Shown here in pieces: positions 33,226 through 52,058 of a stretch of DNA of 64,000 nucleotides. The stretch is from positions 3,989-67,988 of the forward strand of contig JBDRBG010000116.1 in assembly GCA_043823005.1 (NCBI GenBank), in the 5' to 3' direction. The translations under genes and the position numbers were made by a program. The notes beneath the pieces are model-generated. The model did no database searches and was not told the DNA's origin. It saw nothing but the letters and a program-made list of their open reading frames with translations. How positions within the stretch are numbered: the first letter of the stretch is position 1; each line of letters starts with the position of its first letter. The DNA comes from Candidatus Omnitrophota bacterium (lineage in GTDB: Bacteria > Omnitrophota > Gorgyraeia > Tantalellales > Tantalellaceae).

Positions 33226-33251
33226 TAAGTAGCGGGCATTTCAACAAGAAT

Positions 33252-33296: not shown

Positions 33297-33349
33297 TTAG
33301 GAATAAGAAGTAAAATGACATTTTACTGTGCCGTTCAGGCTGTGTTGCA

Positions 33350-34074: not shown

Positions 34075-34173
34075 TGCTGTCGGCTTTTTATATCCAATTA
34101 AAGAAAATGATATTAGATTTTTATGTTTCATTTGCATTCGGAGTTAACCGGGGAATGAAAGATCGGTTTGATT

Positions 34174-36039: not shown

Positions 36040-36135
36040 GGTTGACAGTTGACGGTTAGTTGGTTGATGTTTAAGGGGAAAGGTTCTTGACGGGTAAACA
36101 GTCAACGAACCAACGGTCAACCGTCAACAAACCGG
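36040..36135. repeat. R2 palindromic element abutting the TMTC-like gene stop codon
   Basis: TAGGGTTGACAGTTGACGGTTAGTTGGTTGATGTTTAAGGGGAAAGGTTCTTGACGGGTAAACAGTCAACGAACCAACGGTCAACCGTCAACAAAC. Confidence 0.8.
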
Positions 36136-36340
36136 TGAATAGGGAATAGTGTCTTGTCCTAAAAATAGAGGAAGGGAGATTGCCGGCTTGTAGCCCGCAA
36201 TGACAGAAGGGGGTCGTCATTGCGAAGGCCGAGCCAGCCGAGGCCTGTGGCAATCTGTTATGTAAAAGTGTTTAATTTTTAATAACGATACAAGGTGCAA
36301 AGATGCTTGATTTTTTTTAACATCTAATCCAGTCTTAACC

Positions 36341-36369
36341 TTGACAACGTTAAATGGATATGATAATCT
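36341..36369 (+). promoter_or_regulatory. Sigma70-like promoter upstream of pilM
   Basis: TTGACA, 17-nt spacer, TAATCT. The 13-mer TGACAACGTTAAA recurs at ~43893 upstream of the first pilV-like cassette. Confidence 0.4.
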
Positions 36370-36440
36370 CTCATTAAGATTAATATATATATAACTATAT
36401 TATTAATTTAAACTTATAAATATTTAGCTCGGCATTAATT

Positions 36441-37460: not shown

Positions 37461-37486
37461 TATTTTTTATAATTTTATAATATTCA

Positions 37487-38119
37487 ATGATAGAACTTAA
37501 TCTGCTTCCAAAAGAGTTTCGCAAAAAAAAACAGGCTTCCAATCAGTTGACTGAGATACCTGTAGTTGTCATATCCGCGTGTATAGTAGTTTTTGTTGTG
37601 TTGATTCATATTCTATTGGTTTTTTTTGACGCAAGGAACAATGCTGTCTTGAAAAAACTGGAGCAAAGATGGGATCAAATACAGCCTCAAAGTAAAGAAA
37701 CAGAAGAACTATCCAGAAATATTGTCTCTATTGAAAAAAAAGTTATTGCTATTCGGGAAATAGCAAAACCCGGTTTTAGTTGGGCGCGGGTATTAAGCGG
37801 GTTGAATGAGAGTATAATTGACGATATATGGCTTTCAGGATTTGATCTTAGTTTTTCAAGAGGAAAAGGATCAGCTCAGGACCTGCCAAGCGCAGTTAAT
37901 CTTACAGGGTACGCGTTTAGTGAAACGGAAAAAGCTACTTCCCGTGTCGCGAAATTTATTGCCAGTTTGAAAAACAATGAAGATTTTTCGCGATATTTTG
38001 AAGATATTGAAGTGCAGAACATAAGGAATACTGAATTTGCTAAGACCGAGGTTATGATATTCAGGTTGATTTGCCGGGTTAAATCAATAGATATTGTTTC
38101 GATTAAAGGTGAAAAATAA
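37487..38119 (+). CDS. pilN: Type IV pilus assembly protein PilN
   Basis: MIELNLLPKEF (INLLP motif), single TM, coiled coil. Confidence 0.75.
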   Translation: MIELNLLPKEFRKKKQASNQLTEIPVVVISACIVVFVVLIHILLVFFDARNNAVLKKLEQRWDQIQPQSKETEELSRNIVSIEKKVIAIREIAKPGFSWARVLSGLNESIIDDIWLSGFDLSFSRGKGSAQDLPSAVNLTGYAFSETEKATSRVAKFIASLKNNEDFSRYFEDIEVQNIRNTEFAKTEVMIFRLICRVKSIDIVSIKGEK

Positions 38120-38128
38120 AAAGTAAAA

Positions 38129-38719
38129 ATGATAGATATTAAAAATATAACTGTTGAACAGATTAAAGAGTTTTTAAAAGACGAGCAATACCGGAAATAT
38201 ATCATTTCCGGCGGAGTTGTACTTTTTTCCGTGGCTTATTTGGTCTTGCTGGTTGTTCCAAGGTTTTTAAATCTCGGAGACCTGGCTTCTCAAATAAAGG
38301 ATACACGCAATAAGGTTGAAATGCTTGAAACCAGAATAAACCGCAGCGATAAGATGAAGATAAAATTAGCTGAACTTGAGAAAGAACTTACAGATTCTTC
38401 CGAAGGATTATCCGAAGACACCGAGATTCCCGTATTTTTGGAGGAATTATCTTCTGTTGCCGAAATTGCCGGGGTAACAATTTTAAGTATTACGCCTCAG
38501 GAATCCAGAGCTGTTGATAAAAATAACGATATTTTTTACAGTGAAAGCTCGATAATTATAACGGCCAAAAGCGGATATCATCAGCTTCGGCATTTTGTAA
38601 GTAACATAGAAATAGCAAAAAGGTTTATTTCTATCGGAGATCTAAAGATACAATACAATGATAGAACTCCCAGAAAGCATGACATAAAAATGGTATTAAA
38701 AACTTATGTTTCAGAATAA
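38129..38719 (+). CDS. pilO: Type IV pilus assembly protein PilO
   Basis: Single TM plus coiled coil plus C-terminal ferredoxin-like region. Position between pilN and pilP. Confidence 0.65.
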   Translation: MIDIKNITVEQIKEFLKDEQYRKYIISGGVVLFSVAYLVLLVVPRFLNLGDLASQIKDTRNKVEMLETRINRSDKMKIKLAELEKELTDSSEGLSEDTEIPVFLEELSSVAEIAGVTILSITPQESRAVDKNNDIFYSESSIIITAKSGYHQLRHFVSNIEIAKRFISIGDLKIQYNDRTPRKHDIKMVLKTYVSE

Positions 38720-39101
38720 GGCAAATAAAAAGAAAAGAGACTGTTGTTTGTTTCCGCAGACAGCTGTAATATTAATTTTGTTGTTATTGTCAGCAAAGTT
38801 AGTCTGCGCGGAGGGAGATCAGCCTGTAGAGAAGAGAGATCCTTTTGTTCCGCTTGTTGGTGTAGCTCCGGAAAAAAGTCATGAAGAAACAGTAAGTGGT
38901 GAGGGAATTTTTATTTTGCCCGAAGAGATGAAGCTGCAGGGAATTGTGACCGGCGTTAACGGAGAATTCAACGCTTTTATCAACGGAGAGATAGTTAAAA
39001 AAGGCGATAAATTGGGAAATATTCTGATTGAGGATATTGCTAAAAATACAGTTGTTGTGAATGTTAATGATAAAAGGTATATTTTAAAATTGTATGAATG
39101 A
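38706..39101 (+). CDS. pilP: Type IV pilus assembly protein PilP
   Basis: Signal peptide then an RDPFVP motif characteristic of PilP. Immediately upstream of the secretin. Confidence 0.65.
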   Translation: MFQNKANKKKRDCCLFPQTAVILILLLLSAKLVCAEGDQPVEKRDPFVPLVGVAPEKSHEETVSGEGIFILPEEMKLQGIVTGVNGEFNAFINGEIVKKGDKLGNILIEDIAKNTVVVNVNDKRYILKLYE

Positions 39102-39120
39102 AAACAAGGAGATTATAAGA

Positions 39121-40863
39121 ATGAGAAATACTAGTAAAATACGGAAGCTGTTTATACTCGTTCTAATTATGGCATTTTTAAATTTATCTCTCAGCGTGTC
39201 AGCGTTTTGTCAGGTTGGAGGAGCTGTTTCTTCGCCTGAGATAAGCTCTTCAATAGTTACAGACCCTGTGGACGAGACTGTCGAGGAGATTATTCCTTCA
39301 AAATCCGGCAATGTCACTATAAATTTCAAAGATGTTGATATTCAGACAGTACTTCATTATTTGTCGGAAGTCAGCGGGGTAGATATTGTTCCTACTTATG
39401 ATGTAGTAGGTAATGTAACTGTTCGGTTGAGGGATAAACCCTGGGAAGTGGCTTTAGATGTTATTACAAGAAACTCGGATTATGCTTATACAAGAGAAGA
39501 TACTATTATCAGGGTAATGCCAAAGGCTAAGCTTAATACAGAAGAGCCTGTAACAGCGGTTATTCCTTTAAATTATATTATCCAGGATACAGAGGAGTCC
39601 AACCAGAACGTGGCAAAACTTCTGGAAGCAATTACTTCGGTGCTAAAAGTTGATGCAGGCGAAAGCGTGACTTATCTGCCGAGCGCTAACTCGATAGTCG
39701 TAGCCGCGGTACCGGCAAGGCTTAACGCGATAAAGGACATGGTGAAAAGGATAGATGTTAAAATACCTCAGGTCATGCTTGAGGCTAAAATAATAGAGGT
39801 GCGGTTAGATAAGAACGATCAGTTTGGGATTGACTGGAACGCGGTAGTAAGTATCTCCGGATCAAAGCGTCCGACAACACTGCCTTTTGAGCGGACGGGC
39901 GCGTTCGGGTTTTTACCCGGAGAACAGAGAAAGTATCTTCCGTATAGCACAAATATCGCCGGAACTACTATTTCGGAAGAATCGGATTTTCCTTATGTTG
40001 ATTTTACCGCGGCAGTTGATCCGACGGCCGTAGCTACCACAGGCTCGGTTTTTAGTTACGGAACCCTGGATTTTAGCGCTTTTTCAGCGGTACTCAGATT
40101 TATTGATGAATGGGATGATACTAATATTTTGTCAAGCCCGCGAATAACAACATTAAACAATCAGCCCGCGGTTATCAAGGTGATAACGAATGTTTTTCTT
40201 CAAAAACAGCAGACAGCAACTGATACAGCTTCTGTTGTTACCGTTGAATTTGAAGATGAACCCAGAGAAGTAGGAGTTATTTTAGAAGTAACGCCTCATG
40301 TTAATGATAACGGCGAGATAACCGTTAATCTAAAACCGCAGGTTTCCACCAATCTTACTTTTTCGGAACTGGAAGTAAGCGGCGCTACGAATACAGTGGC
40401 AATGACATACAATTCAAGAGAAGCCGAGACGCAGGTAATGGTAAGAGACGGTGAAACCGTTTTTATCGGAGGGCTTATAACGGAGACAAACACAAAAGAA
40501 GATCATAAGTTTCCTATTCTCGGAGATATGACCAAAGGTTTGCCGTTTTTGGGCCCTTTGTTTAATTATGAGCAGGATAATGTCGATAAGACTGAAGTGG
40601 TGTTTTTTATTACGGTTCATCTTTTGAAAGATGGACCGCATTCAGTCGATGTTTCAAATACAGAAGACGAATACGCGAAGTATTTTGAAGAGGAAATAAA
40701 CGAAGCTGAAATTGAAGCAGATAAAGCTGCAGTAAGATCCGAAGAACGAAATAAAACTAAAACAAAAGTTATTGTAAGTAAAGACCAGGCAAAAGAAGGG
40801 TATAAAGCTTTTCTTGATTTCAGGAAAAAACAGGGAGTTAAAAAGACGAAAGATAGAAGATGA
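39121..40863 (+). CDS. pilQ: Type IV pilus secretin PilQ
   Basis: Signal peptide, STN/N0-like domain (VTINFKDVDIQTVLHYLSEV), C-terminal secretin motif FPILGDMTKGLPFLGPLF. ATG 39121 has AAGGAG 8 nt upstream. Confidence 0.85.
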   Translation: MRNTSKIRKLFILVLIMAFLNLSLSVSAFCQVGGAVSSPEISSSIVTDPVDETVEEIIPSKSGNVTINFKDVDIQTVLHYLSEVSGVDIVPTYDVVGNVTVRLRDKPWEVALDVITRNSDYAYTREDTIIRVMPKAKLNTEEPVTAVIPLNYIIQDTEESNQNVAKLLEAITSVLKVDAGESVTYLPSANSIVVAAVPARLNAIKDMVKRIDVKIPQVMLEAKIIEVRLDKNDQFGIDWNAVVSISGSKRPTTLPFERTGAFGFLPGEQRKYLPYSTNIAGTTISEESDFPYVDFTAAVDPTAVATTGSVFSYGTLDFSAFSAVLRFIDEWDDTNILSSPRITTLNNQPAVIKVITNVFLQKQQTATDTASVVTVEFEDEPREVGVILEVTPHVNDNGEITVNLKPQVSTNLTFSELEVSGATNTVAMTYNSREAETQVMVRDGETVFIGGLITETNTKEDHKFPILGDMTKGLPFLGPLFNYEQDNVDKTEVVFFITVHLLKDGPHSVDVSNTEDEYAKYFEEEINEAEIEADKAAVRSEERNKTKTKVIVSKDQAKEGYKAFLDFRKKQGVKKTKDRR

Positions 40864-41820: not shown

Positions 41821-43365
41821 ATGGAACGTAAAAACATAAAGCGAGAGAAACAGGAAAAACAGGGAAAAGAAATATTGATGAATATAGGCCCTGTTGAGAA
41901 TAGGGTTGCTGTTTTGGATAACGGTGAATTAGCTGATTTTTTTATGGAACGGGAAAGCGGCGAACATTATGCCGGTACAATTTATAAAGGGCGTGTTGAT
42001 TCTATTGTTCCCGGAATAGAGGCCGCGTTTGTTAATATCGGGATGGAGAAAAATGGTTTTTTGCATGTGAGTGATGTTCTCGATAAAGGGGCAGTACTTA
42101 AGGCTATGCTTGGTGAAGACGCGGCGTCTTTTAAACCGGCAAAAAAAGAAAAAGTTCCTCAGATAAAGGATATTTTGCGGGTTGGCCAGGAAATTATGGT
42201 TCAGGTTGTAAAAGAAGCCATAGGCACTAAAGGGCCAAGGATTACCACTTACATAAGCATACCGGGGAGATTTTTAGTGCTTACTCCATATGATAAAGGG
42301 ATAGGAATATCACGGCGCATAAATGACAGGGTAGAAAGAAAAAGGATACGCGAGATTATTGATGGTATGGGGCTTTTAGGAAAGGTCGGATGTATAGTAC
42401 GTACTGTGGCTCAAAACAGTTCAGAAGAGGAGTTTCGGCGGGAACTTAAATATCTGATGAAGCTCTGGGAAAGGATAAAAGAACGGAGTGAAAAGGAAAA
42501 AGCTCCGGTTGCTGTATATGAAGAATACGGCCTTATTTTACGTTTAATCAGAGATGTGTTTAGCGAAGATATGGCGCGGCTTATTGTTGATTCTAAAGAT
42601 GAATATAACCGCATATCAAAATTTTTAAAATCATTTATGCCGTCTTTAATATCAAAAATAAAGCTGTATAACGGGCATATGTCTTTATTTCAAAAATATA
42701 ATCTGGAAAAAAAGATAGAAGAAATATTTGAAAGAAAGGTTATGTTGAAAAGCGGAGGATATCTTGTGATCGAGCCTACAGAAGGCGTTGTTGTAATAGA
42801 TATTAATACAGGGAGTTTTGTCGGGAAAAGAAGCCTTGAGGAGACGGCTTTTAAGACAAATATGGAGGCGGCCGAAGAGATACCGCGTCAACTGATTTTA
42901 AGAGATATGGGAGGTATTATTATAATAGATTTTATCGATATGGAGGTCAGGGATCATAGGGATAAAATATATAATCGGCTTCAGCAAAGACTTAAAGGTG
43001 ATAAAGCGCGTATAAGCCTGCGCGCGATGTCGCAATTCGGGGTGGTAGAGATGACACGTCAAAGAATGCGCAAAAGCCTTGAAGGCGCTTCATATGGAGA
43101 CTGTCCGTATTGCGGTGGAAAGGGTAAAATAAAAAATGTTGAGACAATAGCGATTGAAACCGCGCGCAGGATAGACCGGATGCTTTCGAATAGGGATAAG
43201 AAACGGCGGCAGATAAATATATCCGCGCATCCTAAGGTTTTAGAAACGCTTGTTTCTGATCAGGCGCGTATCTTGAGCGGTATTCAGCGGAAATATAGAT
43301 GTAAGATAGATCTTAAAGAAGATAAATCGCTTCATATCGAGGATGTTATTATTGACGATATTTAG
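41821..43365 (+). CDS. rng: Ribonuclease E/G family endoribonuclease
   Basis: S1 domain (YAGTIYKGRVDSIVPGIEAAFVNIG), RNase E/G catalytic core, Zn-link CPYC, 514 aa (RNase G-sized). Confidence 0.85.
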   Translation: MERKNIKREKQEKQGKEILMNIGPVENRVAVLDNGELADFFMERESGEHYAGTIYKGRVDSIVPGIEAAFVNIGMEKNGFLHVSDVLDKGAVLKAMLGEDAASFKPAKKEKVPQIKDILRVGQEIMVQVVKEAIGTKGPRITTYISIPGRFLVLTPYDKGIGISRRINDRVERKRIREIIDGMGLLGKVGCIVRTVAQNSSEEEFRRELKYLMKLWERIKERSEKEKAPVAVYEEYGLILRLIRDVFSEDMARLIVDSKDEYNRISKFLKSFMPSLISKIKLYNGHMSLFQKYNLEKKIEEIFERKVMLKSGGYLVIEPTEGVVVIDINTGSFVGKRSLEETAFKTNMEAAEEIPRQLILRDMGGIIIIDFIDMEVRDHRDKIYNRLQQRLKGDKARISLRAMSQFGVVEMTRQRMRKSLEGASYGDCPYCGGKGKIKNVETIAIETARRIDRMLSNRDKKRRQINISAHPKVLETLVSDQARILSGIQRKYRCKIDLKEDKSLHIEDVIIDDI

Positions 43366-43373
43366 GAGGAGGT

Positions 43374-43853
43374 ATGAAAATTATTTTCAACAATAAAGGT
43401 ATAAGTTTTATCGAAGTCATGGTTTCTGCCGTCCTGGTAGCGTTAGGAACAACAGCTTTAATATCCGCGGTTATGCAGAGCTCTGTTTTTTCGAAAAACG
43501 TGGATACAGCTTATACGTCATCCTATATAGCGGAAAGGCGATTAGAAGTGCTTAGAAGTATTGATTTTGATCTTTTATCAGAAACCGCTGAAACAGAAGC
43601 GCGCGTAGCCGCTGACGGTACAATTGATTCAGCGGGTGAATATTTTAGAACAACGGGTATAGAAACAGGGTATGACAGTAATGTACATCTTGTTAGAGCA
43701 AAGATAACAGTAAAAAGGGTCAAAACAGGTATGGATGGCAGCCTTCTTAAAGGGGCTGGCGGCCAGCTAGAGCTTGCCGCTCAGCCGGTAATAATGGAAA
43801 CATTATTTTCAGATGTTGATCACAATGCGGGATCAGGAATAGTTGAAGAATAG
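43374..43853 (+). CDS. Minor pilin/pseudopilin (PilV-like), cassette 1
   Basis: MKIIFNNKG then ISFIEVMVSAVLVALGTTALI prepilin-type N-methylation site. 159 aa. GGAGGAGG SD. Starts 8 nt after rne. Confidence 0.75.
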   Translation: MKIIFNNKGISFIEVMVSAVLVALGTTALISAVMQSSVFSKNVDTAYTSSYIAERRLEVLRSIDFDLLSETAETEARVAADGTIDSAGEYFRTTGIETGYDSNVHLVRAKITVKRVKTGMDGSLLKGAGGQLELAAQPVIMETLFSDVDHNAGSGIVEE

Positions 43854-43969
43854 GCTTCGCAATGTCTTTGCGCGTACACGCAACTGACTAGTACCCTGAC
43901 AACGTTAAAATGAAGAATAATTTTGTCAGTTATCTTACTCTGTCATTCTCGCGAACAGACTGTATTATA

Positions 43970-44110
43970 ACGTCTTTGAGAGCCCATGAAATGGGCGAAG
44001 CAATCTCAAATAGCAATAAAAATATAAACTTTATGGGTAATCCCTATTATTATCGAGATTGCCGCGGTCGCTCTTGCTCCCTCGCAAAGACGAAATTTGA
44101 ATTAAGATAC
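43970..44110. repeat. R1 palindromic element (paralog of 26069-26215)
   Basis: Same sequence with a few substitutions. Creates the spurious ORF 43910..44134. Confidence 0.8.
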
Positions 44111-44214
44111 AGCCTAGAAAACGGGAATCTATAGAATGGTACTTTTCATTTTTAGATTGTCGAGGTGCTAGTGTCATGGCAGCAGTAAACAAAGAAAACG
44201 AATCAGGGGTAGTA

Positions 44215-46401
44215 ATGAATAAAAAAAAGATATTCGCGAACATTAAAGGCTTCAGCCTTATGGAAGTAATGTTTGTGGCTGTTGTTTCTTTAATGGTAAT
44301 AGGCGCTATAGTTTCTGTGTGGACATATACATATAAAACATGGACCGGGGAGAATGTTCATACGCAATTAAGGGTTCAGATAATGGAAGCTTTAGAAACC
44401 ATAAAACGGGATATGCGTCTTTCCAGCGCTACTTATATGTCATTTTATCCTGAAAATAGTGATGTATATACCGCGGCAAGTCTTCCTGTAGCTGAAACTG
44501 ACGCGAATGGACTGCTTACTCTTGATAGTAATGGGAAAATAAGCTGGGCTAAGACTGTTATATATCATCTTTATTCCGAAAGCGACGGTACTCAAACTTT
44601 GCGCAGGACTGTTTATGATCCGCGGGACAATACAATGACAGAGGATGAACGGTATTCGCAGTTAGGAAGTGTTGTAACCGGAGGTACAGGCGGGAGTTCT
44701 TCGACTACGGATACGGAGTTTTTGAAAAACGTGGATGTTTTTGAAATATCCTCATCAGCCGCTATGATAGATTTTTATGATGATTCTAGTACTCCTGTTC
44801 GTGTGGGGAAGGTTATTTTAGGATGGGTTCAGCTTGATTCAGGAAACCATACTGTACGGATGGAAGTAACCGGTAAAAATGACAATTCTACCGGATATGA
44901 TTTTGGAATAGACAGTCTGATCTTAGACCCGGGCGCGAGTGTCCGCGAGTTTGAATATTATGATTCTTCGTATGCTCCGGGCGGTATGTTGTCGCTTAGC
45001 GGCGGATCAGTAAGTTTGCAAAACAGTTCAGTCTGGGGAAATAATAATTATCTCGAATTCATCGCCGGAGGTGAAGGGTCATACATGCAAGTAACTGATG
45101 CTTATGACCTTTGGAGAGAGTCATCTTTTGAGAGTGTTGCTCTTGATAATACAGGAACAACAGGCGATGAAATGCGTATTGAACTGGATATTCCGGAAGA
45201 AGACGAAGAAGGTTTGATTTCTTGGTTTGTTCATGCCGAGGCCAATGATCTTGAAGCAGCAGGCAGAGACGGTGCTTTTCCGGCTGTTGAGCCTTTGACC
45301 ATACGCACTATTGTTACTGCTGATAATGTTGGAAAGGAAGGTGCTTTGGTACAAGTTAAATTTTCATCTTCCGTAAATAATGATCTGGTAATAGCTAATG
45401 CTTATATAACAAAACGGGACGGGATAACCGGGTCCAACGGTTTGGCAAACCAGGCTCCGGGGAGTTTAACTGTTGAGGAATATCATCGGCATCAACAGCT
45501 TTTTTTTAAAGCCGCTGATGGTACTATTAATTCCGGGATTACAATAAGCGCTGATTCTTTTGTTTGGAGCGAATGGACGGCTTTTCCTTTAAGAACAGAC
45601 AGTGATTATTTTATAACTTTTCATGTCTCGGATATTTCCACTGTTGACTGCAGATATTGGGAAGATTCTGTCGGGACTGTGCACACATATTATGTGACAG
45701 GAAGTACTTCTGATCTGGCAGGCACTCCTGATTGGACAGCAGAAACCGTAAATCCTTCGGCTAATATTTTTGTTACATCAGCGATATCAGTCGCAGATAC
45801 CGAAGGTACTGTTGAATCCCAGGCATTTGATACGACTCTTTCCGCTCCTAATTATAATAAGATCAAATGGTCGGAAAACAAACCTCTAGGTACAACTATT
45901 TTTTTTAAGACAAGATCATCAGCGGATCAATACATGACAGGAGCTACGGATTGGGATCTTATTGCCGGTTCAAGTTCTAATCCGCATTCGTTAGCTATGG
46001 GCAGCGGACGATATGTTCAATTCTTAGCGGAACTTTCTACTGAGCTTTTTTGGAAAAGCGCGGCCAGTCAGTTAAGTTATGCTGATTATATAGAAGCACA
46101 GGTTGATTTTCCTTCGGACGATCAATTTCCCAGAGACAGTACGGGCGACTTTTTAGTAACTGATTATAATGTTCCATGGATAGACGATGTAGAGATCGAT
46201 TGGCCCGGATTAAACAGGATGGCCGCTATTGAGGCTTATATTGCTAAAAAAGACAGTTATGGACAGGCAAAAGTTACTGTTGACGGGAAAGACCTTGTTA
46301 AAACCCTTAGTGTTCATATAAACGTATCAGATGAAGTAAGCGGCAGGACATTGGAAGAAGATCATTGTTTGGAAATAGAACCAAGGAATACAGGAAAATG
46401 A
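44215..46401 (+). CDS. Large (~730 aa) prepilin-leader protein (PilW-like N-terminus plus large beta-rich C-terminal region), cassette 1
   Basis: Leader MNKKKIFANIKG then FSLMEVMFVAVVSLMVIGAIV (Glu+5). The rest has no recognisable domain. Roughly 55-60% identical to the 48569..50758 paralog. Confidence 0.7.
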   Translation: MNKKKIFANIKGFSLMEVMFVAVVSLMVIGAIVSVWTYTYKTWTGENVHTQLRVQIMEALETIKRDMRLSSATYMSFYPENSDVYTAASLPVAETDANGLLTLDSNGKISWAKTVIYHLYSESDGTQTLRRTVYDPRDNTMTEDERYSQLGSVVTGGTGGSSSTTDTEFLKNVDVFEISSSAAMIDFYDDSSTPVRVGKVILGWVQLDSGNHTVRMEVTGKNDNSTGYDFGIDSLILDPGASVREFEYYDSSYAPGGMLSLSGGSVSLQNSSVWGNNNYLEFIAGGEGSYMQVTDAYDLWRESSFESVALDNTGTTGDEMRIELDIPEEDEEGLISWFVHAEANDLEAAGRDGAFPAVEPLTIRTIVTADNVGKEGALVQVKFSSSVNNDLVIANAYITKRDGITGSNGLANQAPGSLTVEEYHRHQQLFFKAADGTINSGITISADSFVWSEWTAFPLRTDSDYFITFHVSDISTVDCRYWEDSVGTVHTYYVTGSTSDLAGTPDWTAETVNPSANIFVTSAISVADTEGTVESQAFDTTLSAPNYNKIKWSENKPLGTTIFFKTRSSADQYMTGATDWDLIAGSSSNPHSLAMGSGRYVQFLAELSTELFWKSAASQLSYADYIEAQVDFPSDDQFPRDSTGDFLVTDYNVPWIDDVEIDWPGLNRMAAIEAYIAKKDSYGQAKVTVDGKDLVKTLSVHINVSDEVSGRTLEEDHCLEIEPRNTGK

Positions 46402-47594
46402 AGAAAACATTTTTAAAAAATTATGACGGATTATCCGGATCCGGGATAAAGGGAAAAGAAAAGGGTGTAGTTCTGGTAATAGTCATGTTTTTTATGTCGC
46501 TTATGGTATTGAGCGCGGTCTCGCTTTCAAATATGATTCAGCAGGATATAAGGCTTGTAGAACATGTAAGAGAAAGAACACAGGCCAAGTTTATAGCGGA
46601 AGCCGGGATTAATCACGCGTTAGCTAAGATACAAGCCGATGGTTTTGATTCGCGTCAGAATTTTAACGGAGCATTGGATATCGGAAGCTATACAGTTACG
46701 CATAGTACTTTTTCTGTCAGCGGGCTGGCCAGGCATCGTATTACTTCGGTTGGTACAATCTCCGGTGTTTCTGAGACAGCAATCGTTGAGGTTAAGGATT
46801 CTGTTCCTACGGCTTTATATTGTTTTTCAGGCGCCGGCAATGATATCAACATTAAAGTTCACACACATATAGAAAATGCTGTTATTAACGGGAACATGCA
46901 TGCTAATAATAATTTATCTCTTACGGCGAATAAGATGCATTCGAAATTGACTGTTACCGGAGATGTTTCAGCAACAGGTATAGTCGTGGAAGGAACACTA
47001 CATAACCAGTCAGATAAGCAGGATAATAATGTGTATATAAACGGTTTTGCTAATGATCAGGCGGTTGTTACTGAAGGCAGTGCGAATATAACTTTCCCCG
47101 TATTTGATTATACCGCTTATAAACAGGCGGCTCAGGATGACGGATTGTATTACAGTACTGATAAAACATTTTCAGGTACGCCTTTAAGCCCGGATAACGG
47201 TATTGTATATGTGGATGGAGATGTTATTATAACAGGTGAGGTTACACTTTATGGCGGACTTATCGCTGAGACAATAACAATAGCGCCAAACAGCACTCTT
47301 TATCAAAAAAAGACTGCTGATGCGGATAATCGAAATGTTATTATTGCCAAAAATGGAGATATCTCAATCGCGGGATATCTTGATGCTGAAGAGGCTCTGA
47401 TATACGCGTCTCAGGATATTTTATCATCTGCCGGGGGTAGCTTGGAACCTCATGTTATTGTCAATGGAACAATGCTTGCGGCAAGGGACATTACTATGTG
47501 GAACACAAAAACTCATATTATCTACAATCATGTTCAAATGAGTCCCGAAGATATGGAAGCCGGAGGGTTTGAAGTGGTAAGCTGGAATAAGTAA
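46398..47594 (+). CDS. PilX/GspK-like minor pilin with C-terminal beta-helix-like repeats, cassette 1
   Basis: N-terminal GVVLVIVMFFMSLMVLSAVSLSNMIQQDIRLVEHVRERTQAKFIAEAGINHA resembles the PilX_N/GspK N-terminal segment. C-terminal Gly/Asn-rich repeats (GDVSATG, GDVIITGEV). ATGA overlap with the previous gene. Confidence 0.65.
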   Translation: MKKTFLKNYDGLSGSGIKGKEKGVVLVIVMFFMSLMVLSAVSLSNMIQQDIRLVEHVRERTQAKFIAEAGINHALAKIQADGFDSRQNFNGALDIGSYTVTHSTFSVSGLARHRITSVGTISGVSETAIVEVKDSVPTALYCFSGAGNDINIKVHTHIENAVINGNMHANNNLSLTANKMHSKLTVTGDVSATGIVVEGTLHNQSDKQDNNVYINGFANDQAVVTEGSANITFPVFDYTAYKQAAQDDGLYYSTDKTFSGTPLSPDNGIVYVDGDVIITGEVTLYGGLIAETITIAPNSTLYQKKTADADNRNVIIAKNGDISIAGYLDAEEALIYASQDILSSAGGSLEPHVIVNGTMLAARDITMWNTKTHIIYNHVQMSPEDMEAGGFEVVSWNK

Positions 47595-47992
47595 TGGGAC
47601 ATTATTAAGAGTGTACATGTCATAATAAGAGGAGCGCTTAGTCTCAGAGAGACAAAAAGCATTATTTAATTTCTAAATTTTTTCAAATTATGTTAAATCA
47701 TATTTTCAAAAAAGTCAGATCTAATATTTGGCAAATCTGCTAGTTTTTCAAATTTTTCTGTCAGTGCAAAAAAATTCATTTCAATCGCAAATCTTTTCAT
47801 TTAAAGACTTTATATTGCAAGAAAAAAAAGAGGGAATTAGCGCGCCTTGTTAGCTGAAAAAAAATTCAGTTTTTTTTAAACTAAGAATCTTTTAGAATTA
47901 TTAGTGTGATATACTTATTAATACGAAAACTTTTTAATGGACTAATGCTCGCAGTAGAGCGGGGTAACAGGAACAGCATAAGTGAGGACAAC

Positions 47993-48493
47993 ATGAAGAT
48001 CAAAGAAAAGAAAACAATAGTGCAGAGAATTGGCTGTAAATTATCAAAATTATGCGAAAATTCCAAAGGAATGTGTTTGATAGAAGCGATTGTTTCTACC
48101 GGACTGGTCGGGATAGTAACGATGTCCATGGTTGGCGCGGTTTCGCAGAGTACGGTATTTACTAAAAGTGTAGATGTTTTTTATCTTGGCACGCATATTG
48201 CTCAAAGGCGTGTGGAGGTTTTAAAACGTATGGATTTTGATCTTTTAGAGTCAAATGCCGAGACTGATATTCGTGTCAGTTCTGACGGAAATATTGATCC
48301 GAACGGAAAGTATTTTCGGACAACTGAAATAACAGCTAATTATGATAATAATACAGATCTAAAAAAGGTAAAAGTTACTGTAAAGAGAATTAGGCTGGAT
48401 ATGTGCGGAACCATTGCTAAAAAGGATACAGATGAATTGGATCTTGTTCATGATCCTATTGTTATGGAAACATTATTTGTTAATTTTGAATAG
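47993..48493 (+). CDS. Minor pilin/pseudopilin (PilV-like), cassette 2
   Basis: ...NSKG then MCLIEAIVSTGLVGIVTMSMV methylation motif. Paralog of 43374..43853 (shared ...TETLFxxxD C-terminus). ATG 47993 follows GAGG. Confidence 0.7.
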   Translation: MKIKEKKTIVQRIGCKLSKLCENSKGMCLIEAIVSTGLVGIVTMSMVGAVSQSTVFTKSVDVFYLGTHIAQRRVEVLKRMDFDLLESNAETDIRVSSDGNIDPNGKYFRTTEITANYDNNTDLKKVKVTVKRIRLDMCGTIAKKDTDELDLVHDPIVMETLFVNFE

Positions 48494-48568
48494 TTTTTCA
48501 ACAGTAGTTAGTTGGTTTTAGTTCGTAATTGGTGTGGACAAACAACGAATTTGAATTGGGAGCTTTTT

Positions 48569-50758
48569 ATGAATATAAAATTTTTACGGAACATAAAAGG
48601 AACAACCCTTGTTGAGACTATGTTTGTGGTGATAATATACGCTATGATCATAGTAGCTATTTTATCAATATGGACATATACTTCAAGATCATGGAATACG
48701 GAAAATGAACGAACGTGTTTAAGAATAGATCTTCTTAAAGCTTTGGAAACTTTAAAAGAAGATCTTAGAGTATCAAGCCTTACTTATATGAGTTTTTATC
48801 CTGAAGGAGGAGAGCCGTATACAGCATTTAGTTTGCCTGTGCCAAAGATAGATGCAAGCGGTTTTTTGGTCCTTAATGCAAATGACGAAATAGTTTGGGA
48901 CAAAACTGTAGTCTATCATATTTATTCGGAAACAGACGAAACTCAGACTTTAAGACGCACGGTTTTGAGCCCAAGGAACAATGCTCTTTCAGATTTGCAA
49001 AGAAAACAGCAATTAGAGTGTATAGTGGCCGGAGGTACCGGAGGAGGAACAGCTGTTACAGATGAAGAGTTTCTTAAAAATCTAGAAGTTTTTGATATTT
49101 CTTCTTTATCTTCAATAATAGATTTTTATTATAATGCCGAGAGTCCGGTAAAAGCCGGAAAGATCATGTTCGGACGCGTTAAATTGGATCCCGGGGATCA
49201 TATTATACGGTTTGAAGTGACTGGAAAAAATACCGATTCTTTGGGGTATGACCTGGGTATTGACAGTATATCGATTGAACCGAGCGGTAGTACAAGGGAA
49301 ATGGAATATTACAACTCGGGTTTTGCTCCTTCGGGTATTCTTTCTTTAAGCGGAGGAAGTGTTCAAAGAATAAACGATCCTTTATGGGGAAATAATAATT
49401 ATCTGAAATTTACTGCTTCAGCAATAGGAAGCTATTTAGAGATAACCGATTATTATGACTTATGGCGAGAATCTTCGTTTGATAATGCCATTTTAAATAA
49501 CTCAGAGACAACAGGCGAAGAAGTTTGTGTTGAAATAGATTTTCCCGAAGGTGATCGGGAAGAAAGGATCACCTGGTATGCTTTTTCAGAGGCAGAGGAT
49601 GATGTTATGGAAGGCAATAATGGGGCTATTTTAGGAGGGATAATACCGCCTGTTACTATACGTACGGTTATTACGCGGGACAATATCGATGTTGAAGGAG
49701 ATATGGTCAGTGTTAAAATTTTGGCTTCGGATAATAACGATCTGGTTATAGACAGGGCATATATAACAAAAAGGGACGGTATTAGCGGGGCTAATGGTTT
49801 GGCTAATCAGGATCCCGGAGTTTTAAGTGTGGAAGAATATCACAGGCATCAACAGTTGTTTTTTGAAGACGGTGACGGGGAAATAAAAGAAGGGGTCACT
49901 GTGCCTGCAGGACAAGAAGTCTGGTGCGAGTGGACTGCTTTTCCGTTAAGGATCGATAGCGATTATTTTGTTACGATTTATTTGTCTGATGCCGTTTCTT
50001 TGGAAGGTAAATACTGGTCGGGAACAGAAGGAGAGGAGCGTAGTTATTATGTAGCAGGCGCGGATAATACAATTGCCGGAACTCCTGATTGGAGCGGGAA
50101 GGGCCCGGTTGCTTTAAAGGATATATATCTAGTCGGGAAGATTGATCTTAAATCCGGCAAAGGTACTGTTGAGTCTCAGATATTTGACTCAACATTAAGC
50201 GCGCCTTCATATGACAAGATAAAGTGGTCGGAAAATAAACCCGCAGGCACAAATATTACATTAAAAGCGCGTTCTTCCGGTAATGAATATATGCAAGATG
50301 CCGCGGATTGGGATTCAATAACAGGTTCAGCAGTAAATCCTCATACGATTAGTATCGGTAATGGCCGATATGTCCAGTTTTTTGCGGAATTATCAGCTAA
50401 TCTTTTTTGGATAAATTCCAGCGGAACAGGGCAACTTAGTTATGAAGCTTATATAAGGGATCAAATAACCCGTCCTGTATATGAATTTCCACAGAATAGC
50501 GGAGAATTTTTAGTTACTTCATATTTTTCTCCGAGCATAGATGATGTTGAGATAAACTGGCCCGGACAGAGTAGGATCTGCGCTATTACAGGATATATAG
50601 CTAAAAAAAAGGACTATGGACAGGCAAAGATCACGGTTGACGGCAGTGAACTTATACAGACCTTAAATATTCATGTGAAAGTATCAAAAGAAATAAGCGG
50701 AATGATGGTTGAAGAAGAAAACTATGTGGAAATAGAGCCAAAGAACACGGGAAAATAA
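48569..50758 (+). CDS. Large (~730 aa) prepilin-leader protein, cassette 2
   Basis: Leader MNIKFLRNIKG then TTLVETMFVVIIYAMIIVAIL. Colinear paralog of 44215..46401 (shared blocks TYMSFYPE, TQTLRRTV, YITKRDGI, EEYHRHQQLFF, KIKWSENKP). Confidence 0.7.
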   Translation: MNIKFLRNIKGTTLVETMFVVIIYAMIIVAILSIWTYTSRSWNTENERTCLRIDLLKALETLKEDLRVSSLTYMSFYPEGGEPYTAFSLPVPKIDASGFLVLNANDEIVWDKTVVYHIYSETDETQTLRRTVLSPRNNALSDLQRKQQLECIVAGGTGGGTAVTDEEFLKNLEVFDISSLSSIIDFYYNAESPVKAGKIMFGRVKLDPGDHIIRFEVTGKNTDSLGYDLGIDSISIEPSGSTREMEYYNSGFAPSGILSLSGGSVQRINDPLWGNNNYLKFTASAIGSYLEITDYYDLWRESSFDNAILNNSETTGEEVCVEIDFPEGDREERITWYAFSEAEDDVMEGNNGAILGGIIPPVTIRTVITRDNIDVEGDMVSVKILASDNNDLVIDRAYITKRDGISGANGLANQDPGVLSVEEYHRHQQLFFEDGDGEIKEGVTVPAGQEVWCEWTAFPLRIDSDYFVTIYLSDAVSLEGKYWSGTEGEERSYYVAGADNTIAGTPDWSGKGPVALKDIYLVGKIDLKSGKGTVESQIFDSTLSAPSYDKIKWSENKPAGTNITLKARSSGNEYMQDAADWDSITGSAVNPHTISIGNGRYVQFFAELSANLFWINSSGTGQLSYEAYIRDQITRPVYEFPQNSGEFLVTSYFSPSIDDVEINWPGQSRICAITGYIAKKKDYGQAKITVDGSELIQTLNIHVKVSKEISGMMVEEENYVEIEPKNTGK

Positions 50759-50759
50759 A

Positions 50760-51971
50760 ATGATGTCAAAGAATCCGAAAAATAAAAGAACTGAAAAGCG
50801 TCAAAAAGGAACCATACTTATTTTGGTCATGGCGTTTTTGGCGTTAATGGCTTTGACTACGATCTCTTTAGCGACTTTAGTTCAGCAGGATGTTAAACTT
50901 ATCCAGTGTGTCAGAGATACAGAGCAAGCCCGTTTTATGGCAGAGGCGGGCATAAACCACGCTATTGCAAATCTTAAAAAAAATAATTTTAGTTCGCGTT
51001 CAGCTTTTAGCGGGACAATGGATACCGGCAGTTATTCTGTGGAATACGGGGCATTGAACTCAAGCGGAAGATTAATAGTGTCGTCTACCGGGACGGCTTC
51101 AGGAGTGTCAAAGACTGTTTGTATGGAAATAAGCAGTAATATGCCTACAGCTTTGTATTATTTCGCGGGCGCCGGAAATGATATTTATATTAATTCTATA
51201 TTATCTCATTCGGTTATAAACGGGGATATTCATGCCAATGGGAGCGTATTTTTAAAATCAAATCGTTTCTTGTCAAGTTTGACTATTGCAGGAGATGTTT
51301 CTGCGTCCGGGACTGTCAAAGAAGGGACCAGGTATAATACAGGAGATAATGATAACTGGGATAATAAGGTGACAATAAATGAAAACGCTAATGATACAGC
51401 TGAAGTATATGAAGGAGAAGAACAAATAACGTTTCCTGTTTTTGATTATCAAAAATATAAAGACGCGGCAATAGCGTCAGGGGATTATTATGCTTCGGAT
51501 CAGGAGTTTGACAATAGTACTCTTTCTCCTGCTAATGGAATAGTTTATGTTGACGGAGATGTGACGTTTTTTGGGACGTGTACATTAAACGGAGGTATAA
51601 TTGCGAAAAATATATATGTCGGAGGATTTGAAATGGTTAAAGTTCTCTGGTGGTGGGTATCCGTATATAAATATGGAAGATTGGATCAACAGAAGACTCA
51701 AAACAACAGAAACGTAATTATTTCTAAAGAGGGAAATATTTTAATATACGGCCCTTTAAACGTCCAGGAAGCATTGGTTTACTCGTCAGGAGATATTGAA
51801 ACTATGAACGCAGGCGCGGATGTAAATATTAATGGTATTATATTGGCAGGCACGGATATATCAATGTGGAATTTTGTTTGTCAATTAGATTATAATTATA
51901 TTTATTTAGAACCGGAGGATATGCAGGGCGGAGGAGGCGATGATACCTTTAGTATTGTAGGTTGGACATAA
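50760..51971 (+). CDS. PilX/GspK-like minor pilin, cassette 2
   Basis: KGTILILVMAFLALMALTTISLATLVQQDVKLIQCVRDTEQARFMAEAGINHA. Paralog of 46398..47594. Confidence 0.65.
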   Translation: MMSKNPKNKRTEKRQKGTILILVMAFLALMALTTISLATLVQQDVKLIQCVRDTEQARFMAEAGINHAIANLKKNNFSSRSAFSGTMDTGSYSVEYGALNSSGRLIVSSTGTASGVSKTVCMEISSNMPTALYYFAGAGNDIYINSILSHSVINGDIHANGSVFLKSNRFLSSLTIAGDVSASGTVKEGTRYNTGDNDNWDNKVTINENANDTAEVYEGEEQITFPVFDYQKYKDAAIASGDYYASDQEFDNSTLSPANGIVYVDGDVTFFGTCTLNGGIIAKNIYVGGFEMVKVLWWWVSVYKYGRLDQQKTQNNRNVIISKEGNILIYGPLNVQEALVYSSGDIETMNAGADVNINGIILAGTDISMWNFVCQLDYNYIYLEPEDMQGGGGDDTFSIVGWT

Positions 51972-52022
51972 TTTCTGGTCAAACAGCCGGTGTTTGAGAA
52001 AAATGTGTGTTTTATATTTAAA

Positions 52023-52058
52023 GGGCGTATTTACTATAATACGCCTTTATTTTTGATT
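52023..52058 (+). terminator. Rho-independent terminator after the second minor-pilin cassette
   Basis: GGCGTAT, loop, ATACGCC followed by TTTATTTTTGATTT. Confidence 0.6.

What the first reader, a model, noticed from the sequence alone, without database searches (positions are those of the whole stretch)
43374..51971. Two tandem, diverged copies of a three-gene minor-pilin cassette (PilV-like, ~730-aa prepilin-leader giant protein, PilX/GspK-like), candidate modular pilus-tip adhesin system
Seen directly: genes 43374-47594 and 47993-51971 are colinear paralogous triplets. Each middle gene has a class III signal (MNKKKIFANIKG|FSLMEVMFV and MNIKFLRNIKG|TTLVETMFV, Glu at +5) but is about 5x longer than a normal minor pilin; I recognise no domain in its ~680-aa C-terminal part. 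The third genes have a PilX_N/GspK-like N-terminal helix followed by ~300 aa of Gly/Asn-rich beta-helix-like repeats. The paralogs keep blocks (TYMSFYPE, YITKRDGI, EEYHRHQQLFF, KIKWSENKP) but differ by ~40-45% elsewhere. Inference: these extended proteins take over PilY1-like tip-adhesin roles (no separate PilY1 present), and the duplication gives two alternative or co-expressed tips, plausibly for host/prey or surface attachment. Cassette 1 starts 8 nt after rne, suggesting read-through from the RNase gene.
Basis: partly seen in the sequence, partly recalled or inferred. Interest (0 to 1): 0.85.

Follow-up and report, generated by a model that had tools for sequence, protein, structure and literature searches.

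The report
Duplicated modular pilus-tip gene cassette
An uncultured Omnitrophota bacterium carries two diverged copies of a three-gene set that most likely builds the tip of its type IV pilus, with two of the three tip proteins enlarged by probable binding domains; it is a new variant of a known design and a testable candidate for how these tiny bacteria grip a host or surface.

Summary
Genes 43374-47594 and 47993-51971 are two colinear paralogous triplets, with 48%, 55% and 46% protein identity. They lie at the end of a complete type IVa pilus operon in a Candidatus Omnitrophota MAG.

Profile and fold searches assign the three genes to the canonical minor-pilin order:
- A is PilV/GspI-type.
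- B is GspJ/PilW-type. Its pilin module is followed by about 550 aa of beta-sandwich modules. [quoted passage not shown]

The A-B-C unit is conserved between rng and rplU across Omnitrophota. It extends at about 27% identity into Kiritimatiellia, Lentisphaerae and Verrucomicrobiota. Copy number varies: one triplet is usual, some genomes have two or three, and some amplify only C.

The best reading is two alternative I-J-K tip/priming complexes that display adhesive modules and substitute for PilY1. The tip role, the ligand and the use of the two copies as alternatives are inferred, not shown.

C has published counterparts (ComZ, cyanobacterial PilX). B is an uncharacterised family with no Pfam model. 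I rate this a new variant of a known kind, of moderate interest.

The parts
43374..43853 (+). A1: small I-type (PilV/GspI/ComGE-like) minor pilin, 159 aa. Leader MKIIFNNKG|ISFIE, with Glu at +5.
   Evidence: N_methyl and TIGR02523 PilV E 5e-4. Across the family, PilV is hit by 22 of 28 members and GspI by 20 of 28. The start lies 8 nt after the rng stop, with an SD sequence.
43950..44095 (.). MITE-like palindromic repeat of about 145 nt inserted in the A1-B1 intergenic gap. Terminal inverted repeats: CGTCTTTGAGAG ... CTCGCAAAGACG.
   Evidence: The 38-nt core occurs 3 times in the window against 0 expected. Related loci have only short A-B gaps.
44176..46401 (+). B1: large J-type (GspJ/PilW-like) modular minor pilin, 741 aa from ATG 44176 or 728 aa from ATG 44215. 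Numbering from 44215: leader ...NIKG|FSLME; helix 15-68; pilin beta-sheet; then all-beta jelly-roll modules to residue 728. Hypervariable, indel-prone segment at about residues 476-520.
46398..47594 (+). C1: K-type (GspK/PilX/ComZ-like) tip pilin, 398 aa, without Glu5. Helix 22-81, four-stranded sheet 89-134, beta-solenoid about 144-377, C-terminal strand 391-397. Its ATG overlaps the B1 stop (ATGA).
47595..47992 (+). 398-nt AT-rich spacer between the cassettes; possible separate promoter region for cassette 2.
   Evidence: Sequence. No terminator-like site was found in it. The promoter role is inferred only.
47993..48493 (+). A2: paralog of A1, 166 aa from ATG 47993. Site ...NSKG|MCLIE.
   Evidence: 48% identical to A1. 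ComGE-like N-terminus.
48569..50758 (+). B2: paralog of B1, 729 aa. Leader MNIKFLRNIKG|TTLVE.
   Evidence: 55% identical to B1 over its full length. It retains all 36 invariant columns of the 46-sequence family alignment.
50760..51971 (+). C2: paralog of C1, 403 aa, without Glu5. Carries a unique 15-aa Trp-rich insertion (FEMVKVLWWWVSVYK).
   Evidence: 46% identical to C1. PilX_N is below cutoff at 16.1 bits. GspK N-terminus E 2.9e-5. The insertion is absent from 49 homologs.
52021..52048 (+). Intrinsic-terminator-like hairpin (11-bp stem plus T run) after C2 and before rplU.
41821..43365 (+). RNase G/E-family gene immediately upstream; its junction with the cassette is conserved.
   Evidence: PF10150 E 4e-101. 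rng is followed by A in most Omnitrophota loci.
26232..40863 (+). Type IVa pilus machinery that would assemble these pilins: PilT 26232; MshEN ORF 27377; PilB x2 at 27848 and 29575; PilC 31463; two major-pilin-like genes at 32854 and 33739; TPR protein 34168; PilM/N/O 36441-38719; small ORF 38706; secretin PilQ 39094.
   Evidence: PilT TIGR01420 scores 448.6 bits against a cutoff of 319.

Best explanation
Each cassette encodes the three core minor pilins of a type IVa pilus, in the canonical order I (PilV/GspI-like A), J (PilW/GspJ-like B), K (PilX/GspK-like C).

Proposed mechanism, by analogy with the GspI-J-K and FimU-PilVWX complexes. The three proteins are processed by the prepilin peptidase. 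They assemble in the inner membrane into a quasi-helical complex that primes pilus polymerisation, and so end up at the distal tip. K has no Glu5 and sits on top.

In this family two subunits are enlarged. B carries about 550 aa of beta-sandwich (CBM-like) modules after its pilin module. C carries an ice-binding-protein-like beta-solenoid inserted in its pilin fold, as in Thermus ComZ and cyanobacterial PilX. These bulky modules can only fit at the tip. They would cap the filament, which is the job of PilY1 in proteobacteria, and bind a ligand. The most likely ligand is a surface glycan or polymer of a host, prey cell or substrate. PilT-driven retraction would then pull the cell onto it.

The two old, diverged but intact cassettes would give two alternative tip complexes with different specificities. 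Cassette 1 would be read through from rng. Cassette 2 may be transcribed from the 398-nt spacer.

Shown: gene identities, folds, conservation, synteny and copy-number variation. Inferred: complex formation, tip location, ligand binding, alternative use and the transcription pattern.
For: - Paralogy of the two triplets.
- Class III signals, with G-1 and E+5 at least 90% conserved in B; E+5 found in most A and B homologs and in none of 74 C homologs.
- A is I-type.
- The surrounding machinery is a complete T4aP with PilT, PilB, PilC, PilMNO and PilQ.
- A-B-C is an invariant unit in 77 loci from Omnitrophota and PVC phyla.
- B-C start/stop coupling: ATGA overlap in cassette 1, 1-nt gap in cassette 2.
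- Copy number varies and duplications are independent in several lineages.
- The least conserved block between the paralogs (residues 481-520, 35% identity) is also the family's indel hot spot, as expected for an exposed specificity region.
- Both copies keep all family-invariant residues, and dN is well below dS.
- No PilY1 in the window.
- Published precedents for each element: PMC9934059, PMC8179133, PMC6561018, bioRxiv 10.64898/2026.02.12.705559.
Against: - There is no experimental or expression evidence for any step.
- No H-type (FimU/GspH) minor pilin was found next to the cassettes, so the complex differs from the canonical four-subunit set.
- B does not match the curated GspJ or PilW sequence models, and its J assignment rests on a predicted structure.
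- No curated CBM family is hit by sequence. The best-matching esterase domain is itself only 'CBM-like', with no open binding pocket of its own (PMC9105624). Ligand binding is therefore a guess.
- PilY1, PilD and further minor pilins may lie outside the window.
- The MITE-like insertion between A1 and B1 could disturb expression of cassette 1.
Confidence: 0.6

Rival explanations
1. The cassettes encode only a priming or 'plug' complex. The large modules of B and C are structural: they cap the filament and stop it passing back through the secretin. They bind no specific ligand, and the second cassette is simple redundancy.
For: The I-J-K core is known to initiate assembly (PMC9934059, PMC10191384). 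The cyanobacterial PilX solenoid has been proposed as a PilY1-like plug (bioRxiv 10.64898/2026.02.12.705559). The esterase CBM-like domain that B resembles has no evident binding pocket of its own (PMC9105624). No curated lectin or CBM model is hit.
Against: About 550 aa of conserved multi-module beta-sandwich is far more than a plug needs. A hypervariable, indel-prone segment sits inside otherwise conserved modules. Cassette and C-gene amplification recurs. Both features fit diversifying specificity better than a purely structural role.
Confidence: 0.15
2. The tip complex is a DNA receptor of a competence pilus, as for Thermus ComZ/PilA2, used for DNA uptake by a small-genome organism.
Against: All six proteins are acidic or neutral: B pI 4.4-4.5, C pI 4.7-5.2. 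The ComGE and ComGD hits cover only the N-terminal helix. The solenoid resembles ice-binding proteins more than ComZ. ComZ has no partner with a B-like CBM array. No comEA or comEC was seen in the window.
Confidence: 0.12
3. The genes are pseudopilins of a type II secretion or polysaccharide-secretion (Hps-like) system, not pilus subunits. The I-J-K tip pushes substrates or EPS through the secretin.
For: Database names given to homologs include 'type II secretion system protein J' and PulG. C hits the GspK N-terminus and A hits GspI. B has a weak N-terminal hit to the HpsC pseudopilin.
Against: The adjacent machinery is T4aP-type: a PilT retraction ATPase above its curated cutoff, PilM/N/O and a PilQ-type secretin, with no GspC, GspL or GspM. 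Bulky modules on the tip subunits are hard to reconcile with a short periplasmic piston.
Confidence: 0.08
4. One cassette is a decaying duplicate with no function of its own.
For: The MITE-like insertion between A1 and B1. The unusually long predicted leader of A2. The odd Trp-rich insertion in C2.
Against: All six ORFs are intact. Both B and both C copies keep every family-invariant residue. Synonymous sites are saturated while dN is about 0.37-0.45, which indicates long-term purifying selection on both copies.
Confidence: 0.05

Closest known systems
GspI-GspJ-GspK pseudopilus tip complex (PDB 3CI0, 5VTM) and its T4aP equivalent PilV-PilW-PilX
   Different: B is about 3-4 times larger than GspJ or PilW because of roughly 550 aa of beta-sandwich modules. 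C has a beta-solenoid where GspK has an alpha-domain. No adjacent H-type (GspH/FimU) gene. Curated GspJ, GspK and PilW sequence models are not met beyond the N-terminus.
Thermus thermophilus ComZ (PDB 6QVI) and cyanobacterial PilX/HpsA-type beta-solenoid tip pilins
   Same: C has the same overall design: a GspK-like pilin fold plus an ice-binding-protein-like triangular beta-solenoid. It is predicted to be tip-only. In cyanobacteria this type is proposed to replace PilY1, and two priming sets give two kinds of pili.
   Different: No detectable sequence similarity: a profile search against PDB found nothing. C is smaller, at about 400 aa against 554 aa for ComZ. It is acidic. Its partner here is the giant B protein, which has no counterpart in those systems.
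Modular minor pilins of Streptococcus sanguinis (PilB with vWA, PilC with Ig plus lectin) forming the PilA-PilB-PilC tip complex
   Different: Different modules (CBM-like jelly rolls and a solenoid, against vWA and ConA-lectin). Diderm T4aP with a secretin. No sequence relationship. Tandem duplication of the whole set.
CBM-like N-terminal domain of FjoAcXE/PbeAcXE acetyl-xylan esterases and of polyvinyl-alcohol esterase (PDB 7TOK, 7TOG, 9KQZ)
   Different: B has no SGNH catalytic domain. In the esterases this domain contributes to the active-site cleft rather than acting as a free-standing lectin (PMC9105624).
PilY1/PilC tip adhesin
   Same: The proposed role: a bulky tip-located plug and adhesin presented by the minor-pilin complex.
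   Different: PilY1 is not a pilin and is defined by a C-terminal beta-propeller (PF05567). Neither B nor C has it, and both have class III signal peptides.

Membership tests
Type IV pilin / pseudopilin superfamily (class III signal peptide) | Short basic leader ending in Gly, followed by a hydrophobic stretch of about 20 residues with Glu at +5 | tested here: met
   A1, A2, B1 and B2 all have G|xxxxE. G12 and E17 are at least 90% conserved in 46 B homologs. N_methyl is hit by 42 of 46 B homologs. C1 and C2 have the Gly and the hydrophobic helix but no Glu5, as expected for K-type.
Type IV pilin / pseudopilin superfamily (class III signal peptide) | Long N-terminal alpha-helix packed on an antiparallel beta-sheet | tested here: met
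Type IV pilin / pseudopilin superfamily (class III signal peptide) | Cleavage and N-methylation by the prepilin peptidase PilD | not testable with these tools
   No PilD (Peptidase_A24) was found among the window ORFs scanned. The rest of the genome was not available.
GspJ / PilW (J-type minor pilin), for B | Match to curated sequence models (TIGR01711 gspJ, PilW models) | tested here: not met
   NCBIfam and Pfam scans of B1 and B2 at E up to 1 give only N-terminal-helix hits (ComGE, ComGD, HpsC); there is no gspJ or PilW hit.
GspJ / PilW (J-type minor pilin), for B | J-type fold and a position between the I and K genes | tested here: met
GspK / PilX (K-type tip pilin), for C | PilX_N / GspK N-terminal segment; no Glu5 | tested here: met
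   C1 scores 26.8 bits on PilX_N, above the 25.5 cutoff; C2 scores only 16.1 bits. GspK N-terminus E 7e-9 and 3e-5. None of 74 C homologs has Glu at +5.
GspK / PilX (K-type tip pilin), for C | Full-length match to GspK, including its inserted alpha-domain | tested here: not met
   NF037980 covers only profile positions 1-67 of 307 and scores 35.6 bits against a cutoff of 130. The model shows a beta-solenoid instead.
ComZ / cyanobacterial PilX class (pilin with inserted ice-binding-like beta-solenoid), for C | GspK-like pilin core plus a triangular beta-solenoid resembling DUF3494 ice-binding proteins | tested here: met
ComZ / cyanobacterial PilX class (pilin with inserted ice-binding-like beta-solenoid), for C | [quoted passage not shown] | tested here: inconclusive
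   The secondary-structure order fits: sheet 89-134, solenoid 144-377, conserved terminal strand 391-397. I could not inspect 3D contacts of the last strand.
ComZ / cyanobacterial PilX class (pilin with inserted ice-binding-like beta-solenoid), for C | DNA binding (ComZ) or EPS-linked function (HpsA) | not testable with these tools
   This needs biochemistry. C1 and C2 are acidic, pI 5.2 and 4.7.
PilV / GspI (I-type minor pilin), for A | Match to PilV or GspI models; small size; position before J | tested here: inconclusive
   A1 scores 20.6 bits on TIGR02523, below the 52.2 cutoff. Across the family, 22 of 28 members hit PilV (best 2e-12) and 20 of 28 hit GspI. No structure was predicted for A.
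Modular pilins (sensu Raynaud et al. 2021, PMC8179133) | N-terminal pilin module fused to one or more extra modules not specific to pilus biology | tested here: met
   B is a pilin module plus beta-sandwich modules. C is a pilin module plus a beta-solenoid.
Carbohydrate-binding modules (CAZy CBM families), for the B extension | Sequence membership in a curated CBM family | tested here: not met
   Only 1 of 46 homologs gives a marginal CBM_6 hit (E 0.078). One short profile match to the xanthan-binding module MiXBM (7EHG, E 4.5e-5, 41 residues).
Carbohydrate-binding modules (CAZy CBM families), for the B extension | Demonstrated glycan binding | not testable with these tools
   Only fold resemblance is available: CBM-like esterase domain and CBM6/35/36/61 hits.
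PilY1 / PilC tip adhesin | C-terminal beta-propeller domain (PF05567 / IPR008707); not a pilin | tested here: not met
Verru_Chthon cassette (TIGR02596-02600; repeated pilin-like cassettes of Verrucomicrobia) | Match to the cassette protein A-D models | tested here: not met
   No hits for B or C from the window or from PVC homologs. There are only weak N-terminal hits for a few A-family members (models B and C) and for the two major-pilin-like proteins (model D).

The most novel reading that the evidence does not exclude
The giant J-type pilin, a GspJ/PilW core carrying an array of CBM-like beta-sandwiches with a hypervariable insert at about residues 476-520, is the host- or prey-recognition determinant of the type IV pili that nearly all Omnitrophota carry. 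It would also serve related Kiritimatiellia, Lentisphaerae and Verrucomicrobiota. Tandem amplification of the I-J-K cassette, or of C alone, would be how these ultra-small, probably host-dependent bacteria diversify or switch attachment specificity. One pilus machine, here with two PilB motors and two major pilins, would build two functionally distinct pili.
Probability: 0.3. Interest if true: 0.7.

Novelty: new variant of a known kind. Interest (0 to 1): 0.5.

Why it matters
Omnitrophota are widespread, uncultured, ultra-small bacteria. They are suspected to live as predators, parasites or symbionts. Type IVa pili are among the few conserved 'symbiosis' traits reported for them (PMC10066038), but what the pili bind is unknown.

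This analysis gives a concrete, phylum-wide candidate for the pilus tip. It is an I-J-K set in which the J and K subunits carry binding-type modules. It has a defined hypervariable segment and natural copy-number variation. Cultured relatives such as Pontiella sulfatireligans carry homologs in which the idea can be tested.

It also defines a protein family with no Pfam model. At 50% identity clustering, about 280 clusters match at E<1e-30.

It adds a third lineage, after Thermus and cyanobacteria, in which enlarged minor pilins rather than PilY1 appear to form the tip. It would be the first in which the J subunit is the main carrier of extra modules.

Tried and rejected
- Sequence profiles. 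Pfam and NCBIfam scans of B (single sequences and all 46 homologs) found nothing beyond the N-terminal methylation motif. Profile searches of A, B and C against PDB sequences gave only N-terminal helix hits and one 41-residue MiXBM match.
- Internal repeats in B. hhalign of seven segments against each other found no significant similarity (best probability below 5%). The beta-sandwich modules are therefore not recent internal duplications.
Synonymous sites are saturated (pS 0.68-0.80; dS 1.8, 2.35 or undefined). The ratio of about 0.2 shows only purifying selection and cannot detect diversifying selection.
- Allelic variation. The closest non-self homologs are only about 55% identical, so no strain-level comparison was possible.
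- Rfam scan of the region. Only sub-threshold chance hits.
- Verru_Chthon cassette membership. Rejected.
- Enzyme hypothesis for B. Rejected, because the esterase hits align only with the non-catalytic CBM-like domain. The isolated domain 7TOK_B aligns over 128 of 130 residues, while 7TOG_A aligns over 172 of 378.
- Recent insertion or mobile-island hypothesis for the cassettes. Rejected, because the rng-ABC-rplU arrangement is conserved across the phylum.
- Annotated record for Pontiella. The accession is not in the annotated collections.

Full report
**1. What is in the sequence**

The window is about 39% G+C. Almost every substantial ORF is on the + strand, and GC skew is positive throughout.

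Between 43374 and 51971 there are six + strand ORFs forming two colinear triplets:
- A1 43374-43853
- B1 44176/44215-46401
- C1 46398-47594
- A2 47993-48493
- B2 48569-50758
- C2 50760-51971

BLASTP gives 48% identity for A1/A2 (E 4e-50), 55% for B1/B2 over 728 residues, and 46% for C1/C2 (E 3e-118). At the DNA level only patches reach about 71-72% identity.

Synonymous sites between the paralogs are saturated (pS 0.68-0.80), while dN is 0.37-0.45. The duplication is therefore old and both copies have been kept under purifying selection. Both B copies and both C copies retain every invariant column of their family alignments.

**2. Local anatomy**

The rng stop codon (TAG 43363-43365) is followed by GAGGAGG and the A1 start at 43374. 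The B1 stop overlaps the C1 start (ATGA at 46398-46401). One nucleotide separates the B2 stop from the C2 start. These spacings suggest translational coupling of B and C.

The A1-B1 gap is about 320-360 nt, depending on the B1 start. It contains a palindromic repeat element of about 145 nt. Its 38-nt core occurs three times in the window against none expected. Related genomes have short A-B gaps, so this is a secondary insertion.

A 398-nt AT-rich spacer separates C1 from A2. A strong terminator-like hairpin at 52021-52048 follows C2.

**3. Genomic setting**

Upstream is a full type IVa pilus gene set:
- a HAMP-GGDEF protein
- PilT (TIGR01420, 448.6 bits against a cutoff of 319)
- a stand-alone MshEN protein
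- two PilB paralogs, each with an MshEN domain
- PilC
- two small major-pilin-like genes
- a membrane TPR protein
- PilM, PilN, PilO and a small ORF
- a PilQ secretin
- a short DUF2344 ORF
- an RNase E/G-family gene

Downstream are rplU, obg, proB, proA and nadD. No ORF of 500 aa or more in the window is a PilY1. No prepilin peptidase was seen in the ORFs scanned.

The proteins are identical to entries from a Candidatus Omnitrophota MAG (locus tags ABH869_07700, _07705 and _07715; contig of 74 kb).

**4. What the three proteins are**

*A.* A has a class III signal (KG|ISFIE). The window copy scores below the curated cutoffs. Across 28 family members, however, 22 hit the PilV model (best E 2e-12), 20 hit GspI and 24 hit ComGE. 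A is an I-type minor pilin.

*B: signal and model.* B has a class III signal whose Gly-1 and Glu+5 are at least 90% conserved among 46 full-length homologs. Nothing else is recognised by Pfam or NCBIfam, in the window proteins or in any of the 46 homologs. An AlphaFold2 model built on that alignment is confident (pLDDT 87.7, pTM 0.72). It shows a 54-residue N-terminal helix followed by an all-beta protein.

Foldseek returns the same esterase domains at probability 1.00.

*B: not an enzyme.* Only the non-catalytic domain of the esterases is matched, so B is not an enzyme. The authors of those structures note that the domain fits no CBM family and contributes to substrate binding at the domain interface (PMC9105624). 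B is thus a J-type pilin module followed by roughly 550 residues of binding-type beta-sandwich modules.

*B: internal structure and variability.* The modules are not detectable internal repeats. The most variable part of the family is at about residues 476-520. There, 25 of 46 homologs carry insertions of up to 45 residues. The same block has the lowest B1/B2 identity, 35%.

*C.* C matches PilX_N (26.8 bits, above the cutoff, for C1; 16.1 bits for C2) and the first 67 positions of the GspK model. None of 74 homologs has Glu at +5, which is the hallmark of the K-type tip subunit.

ComZ is described in just these terms: a GspK-like pilin core with an inserted solenoid that resembles an ice-binding protein. 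On steric grounds it is argued to fit only at the pilus tip (PMC6561018).

**5. Distribution**

The B family is found almost only in Omnitrophota at 33-56% identity over its full length. A scan of one genome per species retrieved 77 loci. These extend the family at about 25-28% identity, still full length, into Kiritimatiellia, Lentisphaerae and Verrucomicrobiota, including the cultured Pontiella sulfatireligans. An exhaustive profile search counted 280 clusters at 50% identity with E<1e-30.

In these loci A, B and C occur together and in that order almost without exception. In Omnitrophota the string is pilC ... pilM ... pilQ - rng - A - B - C - rplU - obg. The position next to rng is therefore ancestral, not a local insertion. 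In the PVC relatives, A-B-C precedes pilM ... pilQ.

Among the 25 intervals complete from rng to rplU (this window and 24 related loci), the counts are:

| Arrangement | Intervals |
|---|---|
| ABC | 19 |
| ABC with C split by a frameshift | 1 |
| ABCC | 2 |
| ABCCC | 1 |
| ABCABC (this window and L013) | 2 |

Several truncated contigs show two or more cassettes (L014, L015, L025, L030, L034).

Neighbour-joining trees place B1 and B2 of this window as weak sisters. The pairs in L015 and L034 are also sisters, while the two copies in L013 and L025 fall in different clades. Duplication has therefore happened repeatedly.

**6. Most likely mechanism**

The gene order I-J-K, the absence of Glu5 in K, the J-like and K-like cores, and the T4aP machinery next door all point one way. 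These are the core minor pilins that prime pilus assembly and stay at its tip, as established for GspI-J-K and FimU-PilVWX (summarised in PMC9934059).

Bulky modules on pilins are thought to be tolerated only at the tip (PMC8179133, PMC6561018). I therefore read each cassette as a tip complex. The solenoid of C caps the filament. The beta-sandwich array of B reaches out to bind a ligand, probably a glycan or other surface polymer. PilT retraction then pulls the cell to it.

The two cassettes would give two tips with different specificity. In cyanobacteria, two minor-pilin sets prime two distinct pili on one machine, and the PilX solenoid is proposed to replace the PilY1 plug (bioRxiv 10.64898/2026.02.12.705559).

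What is shown here is identity, fold, conservation, synteny and copy-number variation. Complex formation, tip location, ligand, alternative use and transcription are inferred. I put this reading at about 0.6.

**7. Rivals**

- *Structural plug or primer without a specific ligand (0.15).* This fits the lack of any curated lectin signature. It does not explain the size of B, its hypervariable insert, or the recurrent amplification.
- *ComZ-like DNA receptor (0.12).* This is suggested by C's fold. Against it, B and C are acidic (pI 4.4-5.2), and nothing else in the window points to competence.
- *T2SS or Hps-like pseudopilus (0.08).* This is suggested by database names and weak GspI, GspK and HpsC hits. 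It is contradicted by PilT, PilMNO and PilQ.
- *Decaying duplicate (0.05).* This is contradicted by intact ORFs, retained invariant residues and dN well below dS.

**8. Comparison with what is known, and novelty**

C belongs functionally and structurally with ComZ and the cyanobacterial PilX proteins, although without detectable sequence similarity.

The general principle is published: modular pilins, tip complexes of minor pilins, alternative priming sets, and enlarged pilins in place of PilY1.

What I found no description of is the following:
- the B family, a J-type pilin carrying a conserved array of CBM-like modules of about 550 residues, with no Pfam model;
- its strict association with A and C across Omnitrophota and PVC phyla;
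- its fixed place beside rng in Omnitrophota;
- the tandem amplification of the set.

The Omnitrophota papers I could read report type IVa pili as a near-universal 'symbiosis' trait but say nothing about minor pilins. I therefore class it as a new variant of a known kind.

**9. Verdict**

Interest is moderate (0.5). It is not a new kind of system. It does provide a concrete, testable candidate for the attachment determinant of a major uncultured phylum, and it defines an unannotated protein family.

Noticed in passing
window 43950-44095 (+); about 20433-20580 (-); about 5716-5860 (-); related debris at 40956-41163 and 41440-41760: A family of MITE-like palindromic intergenic repeats of about 145 nt. 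Terminal inverted repeats are CGTCTTTG(A/C)GAG ... CTCGCAAAGACG, with an inner GAGATTGC ... GCAATCTC pair. Spurious ORFs across them read like '...CEERSDEAI...' and '...LLAMT...'. One copy sits between A1 and B1 and may affect expression of cassette 1.
   Followed up: partly
window 21852-53909: The pilus genes are interleaved into a housekeeping string that I recall, from my own knowledge, as conserved elsewhere: radical-SAM (21852) - DUF2344 (41138) - rng (41821) - rplU (52199) - obg - proB - proA - nadD. The machinery genes lie between the radical-SAM gene and DUF2344. The minor pilins lie between rng and rplU. The rng-A junction is conserved across Omnitrophota loci, which suggests RNase G is co-transcribed with pilus-tip genes.
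   Followed up: partly
window 41138-41437: The DUF2344 ORF is only 99 aa and covers profile positions 1-95 of 176. The following 380 nt or so hold no matching ORF but do hold repeat debris. The gene may be truncated or disrupted.
   Followed up: no
window 24511-34074: Several pilus components come in pairs, like the tip cassettes: two PilB ATPases (27848, 29575), each with a c-di-GMP-binding MshEN domain, and two major-pilin-like genes (32854, 33739). There is also a stand-alone MshEN ORF (27377) and a HAMP-GGDEF protein (24511). This could mean two c-di-GMP-controlled pilus types on one machine. I did not test whether single-cassette genomes also have two PilB genes.
   Followed up: no
window 50760-51971 (C2), about residues 286-300: C2 has a 15-aa Trp-rich insertion (FEMVKVLWWWVSVYK) in its beta-solenoid. 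None of 49 other family members has it.
   Followed up: partly
L009 12268-16066; L012 5426-7869; L021 12335-15010: In some Omnitrophota genomes only the K-type solenoid pilin (C) is amplified, to two or three tandem copies behind a single A-B pair. This suggests C can be exchanged independently on the same I-J base.
   Followed up: partly
L053 (Pontiella sulfatireligans F21, NZ_CAAHFH010000001.1, 1740455-1743800): A cultured Kiritimatiellota strain carries full-length B and C homologs at about 27% and 24% identity. It is a possible experimental system for this family.
   Followed up: no
window 34168-36039: A 623-aa protein sits between the pilin genes and pilM. Its N-terminal half looks hydrophobic and multi-pass by eye and has no family hit. 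Its C-terminal half has TPR repeats with weak similarity to the PilW/Tgl-type pilus biogenesis proteins. It could be a fused secretin pilotin or a pilin-modifying protein.
   Followed up: no
whole window: GC skew is uniformly positive (0.13-0.31 in every 2-kb bin) and nearly all genes are on the + strand over 64 kb. This is consistent with a single replichore with extreme gene-strand bias.
   Followed up: no
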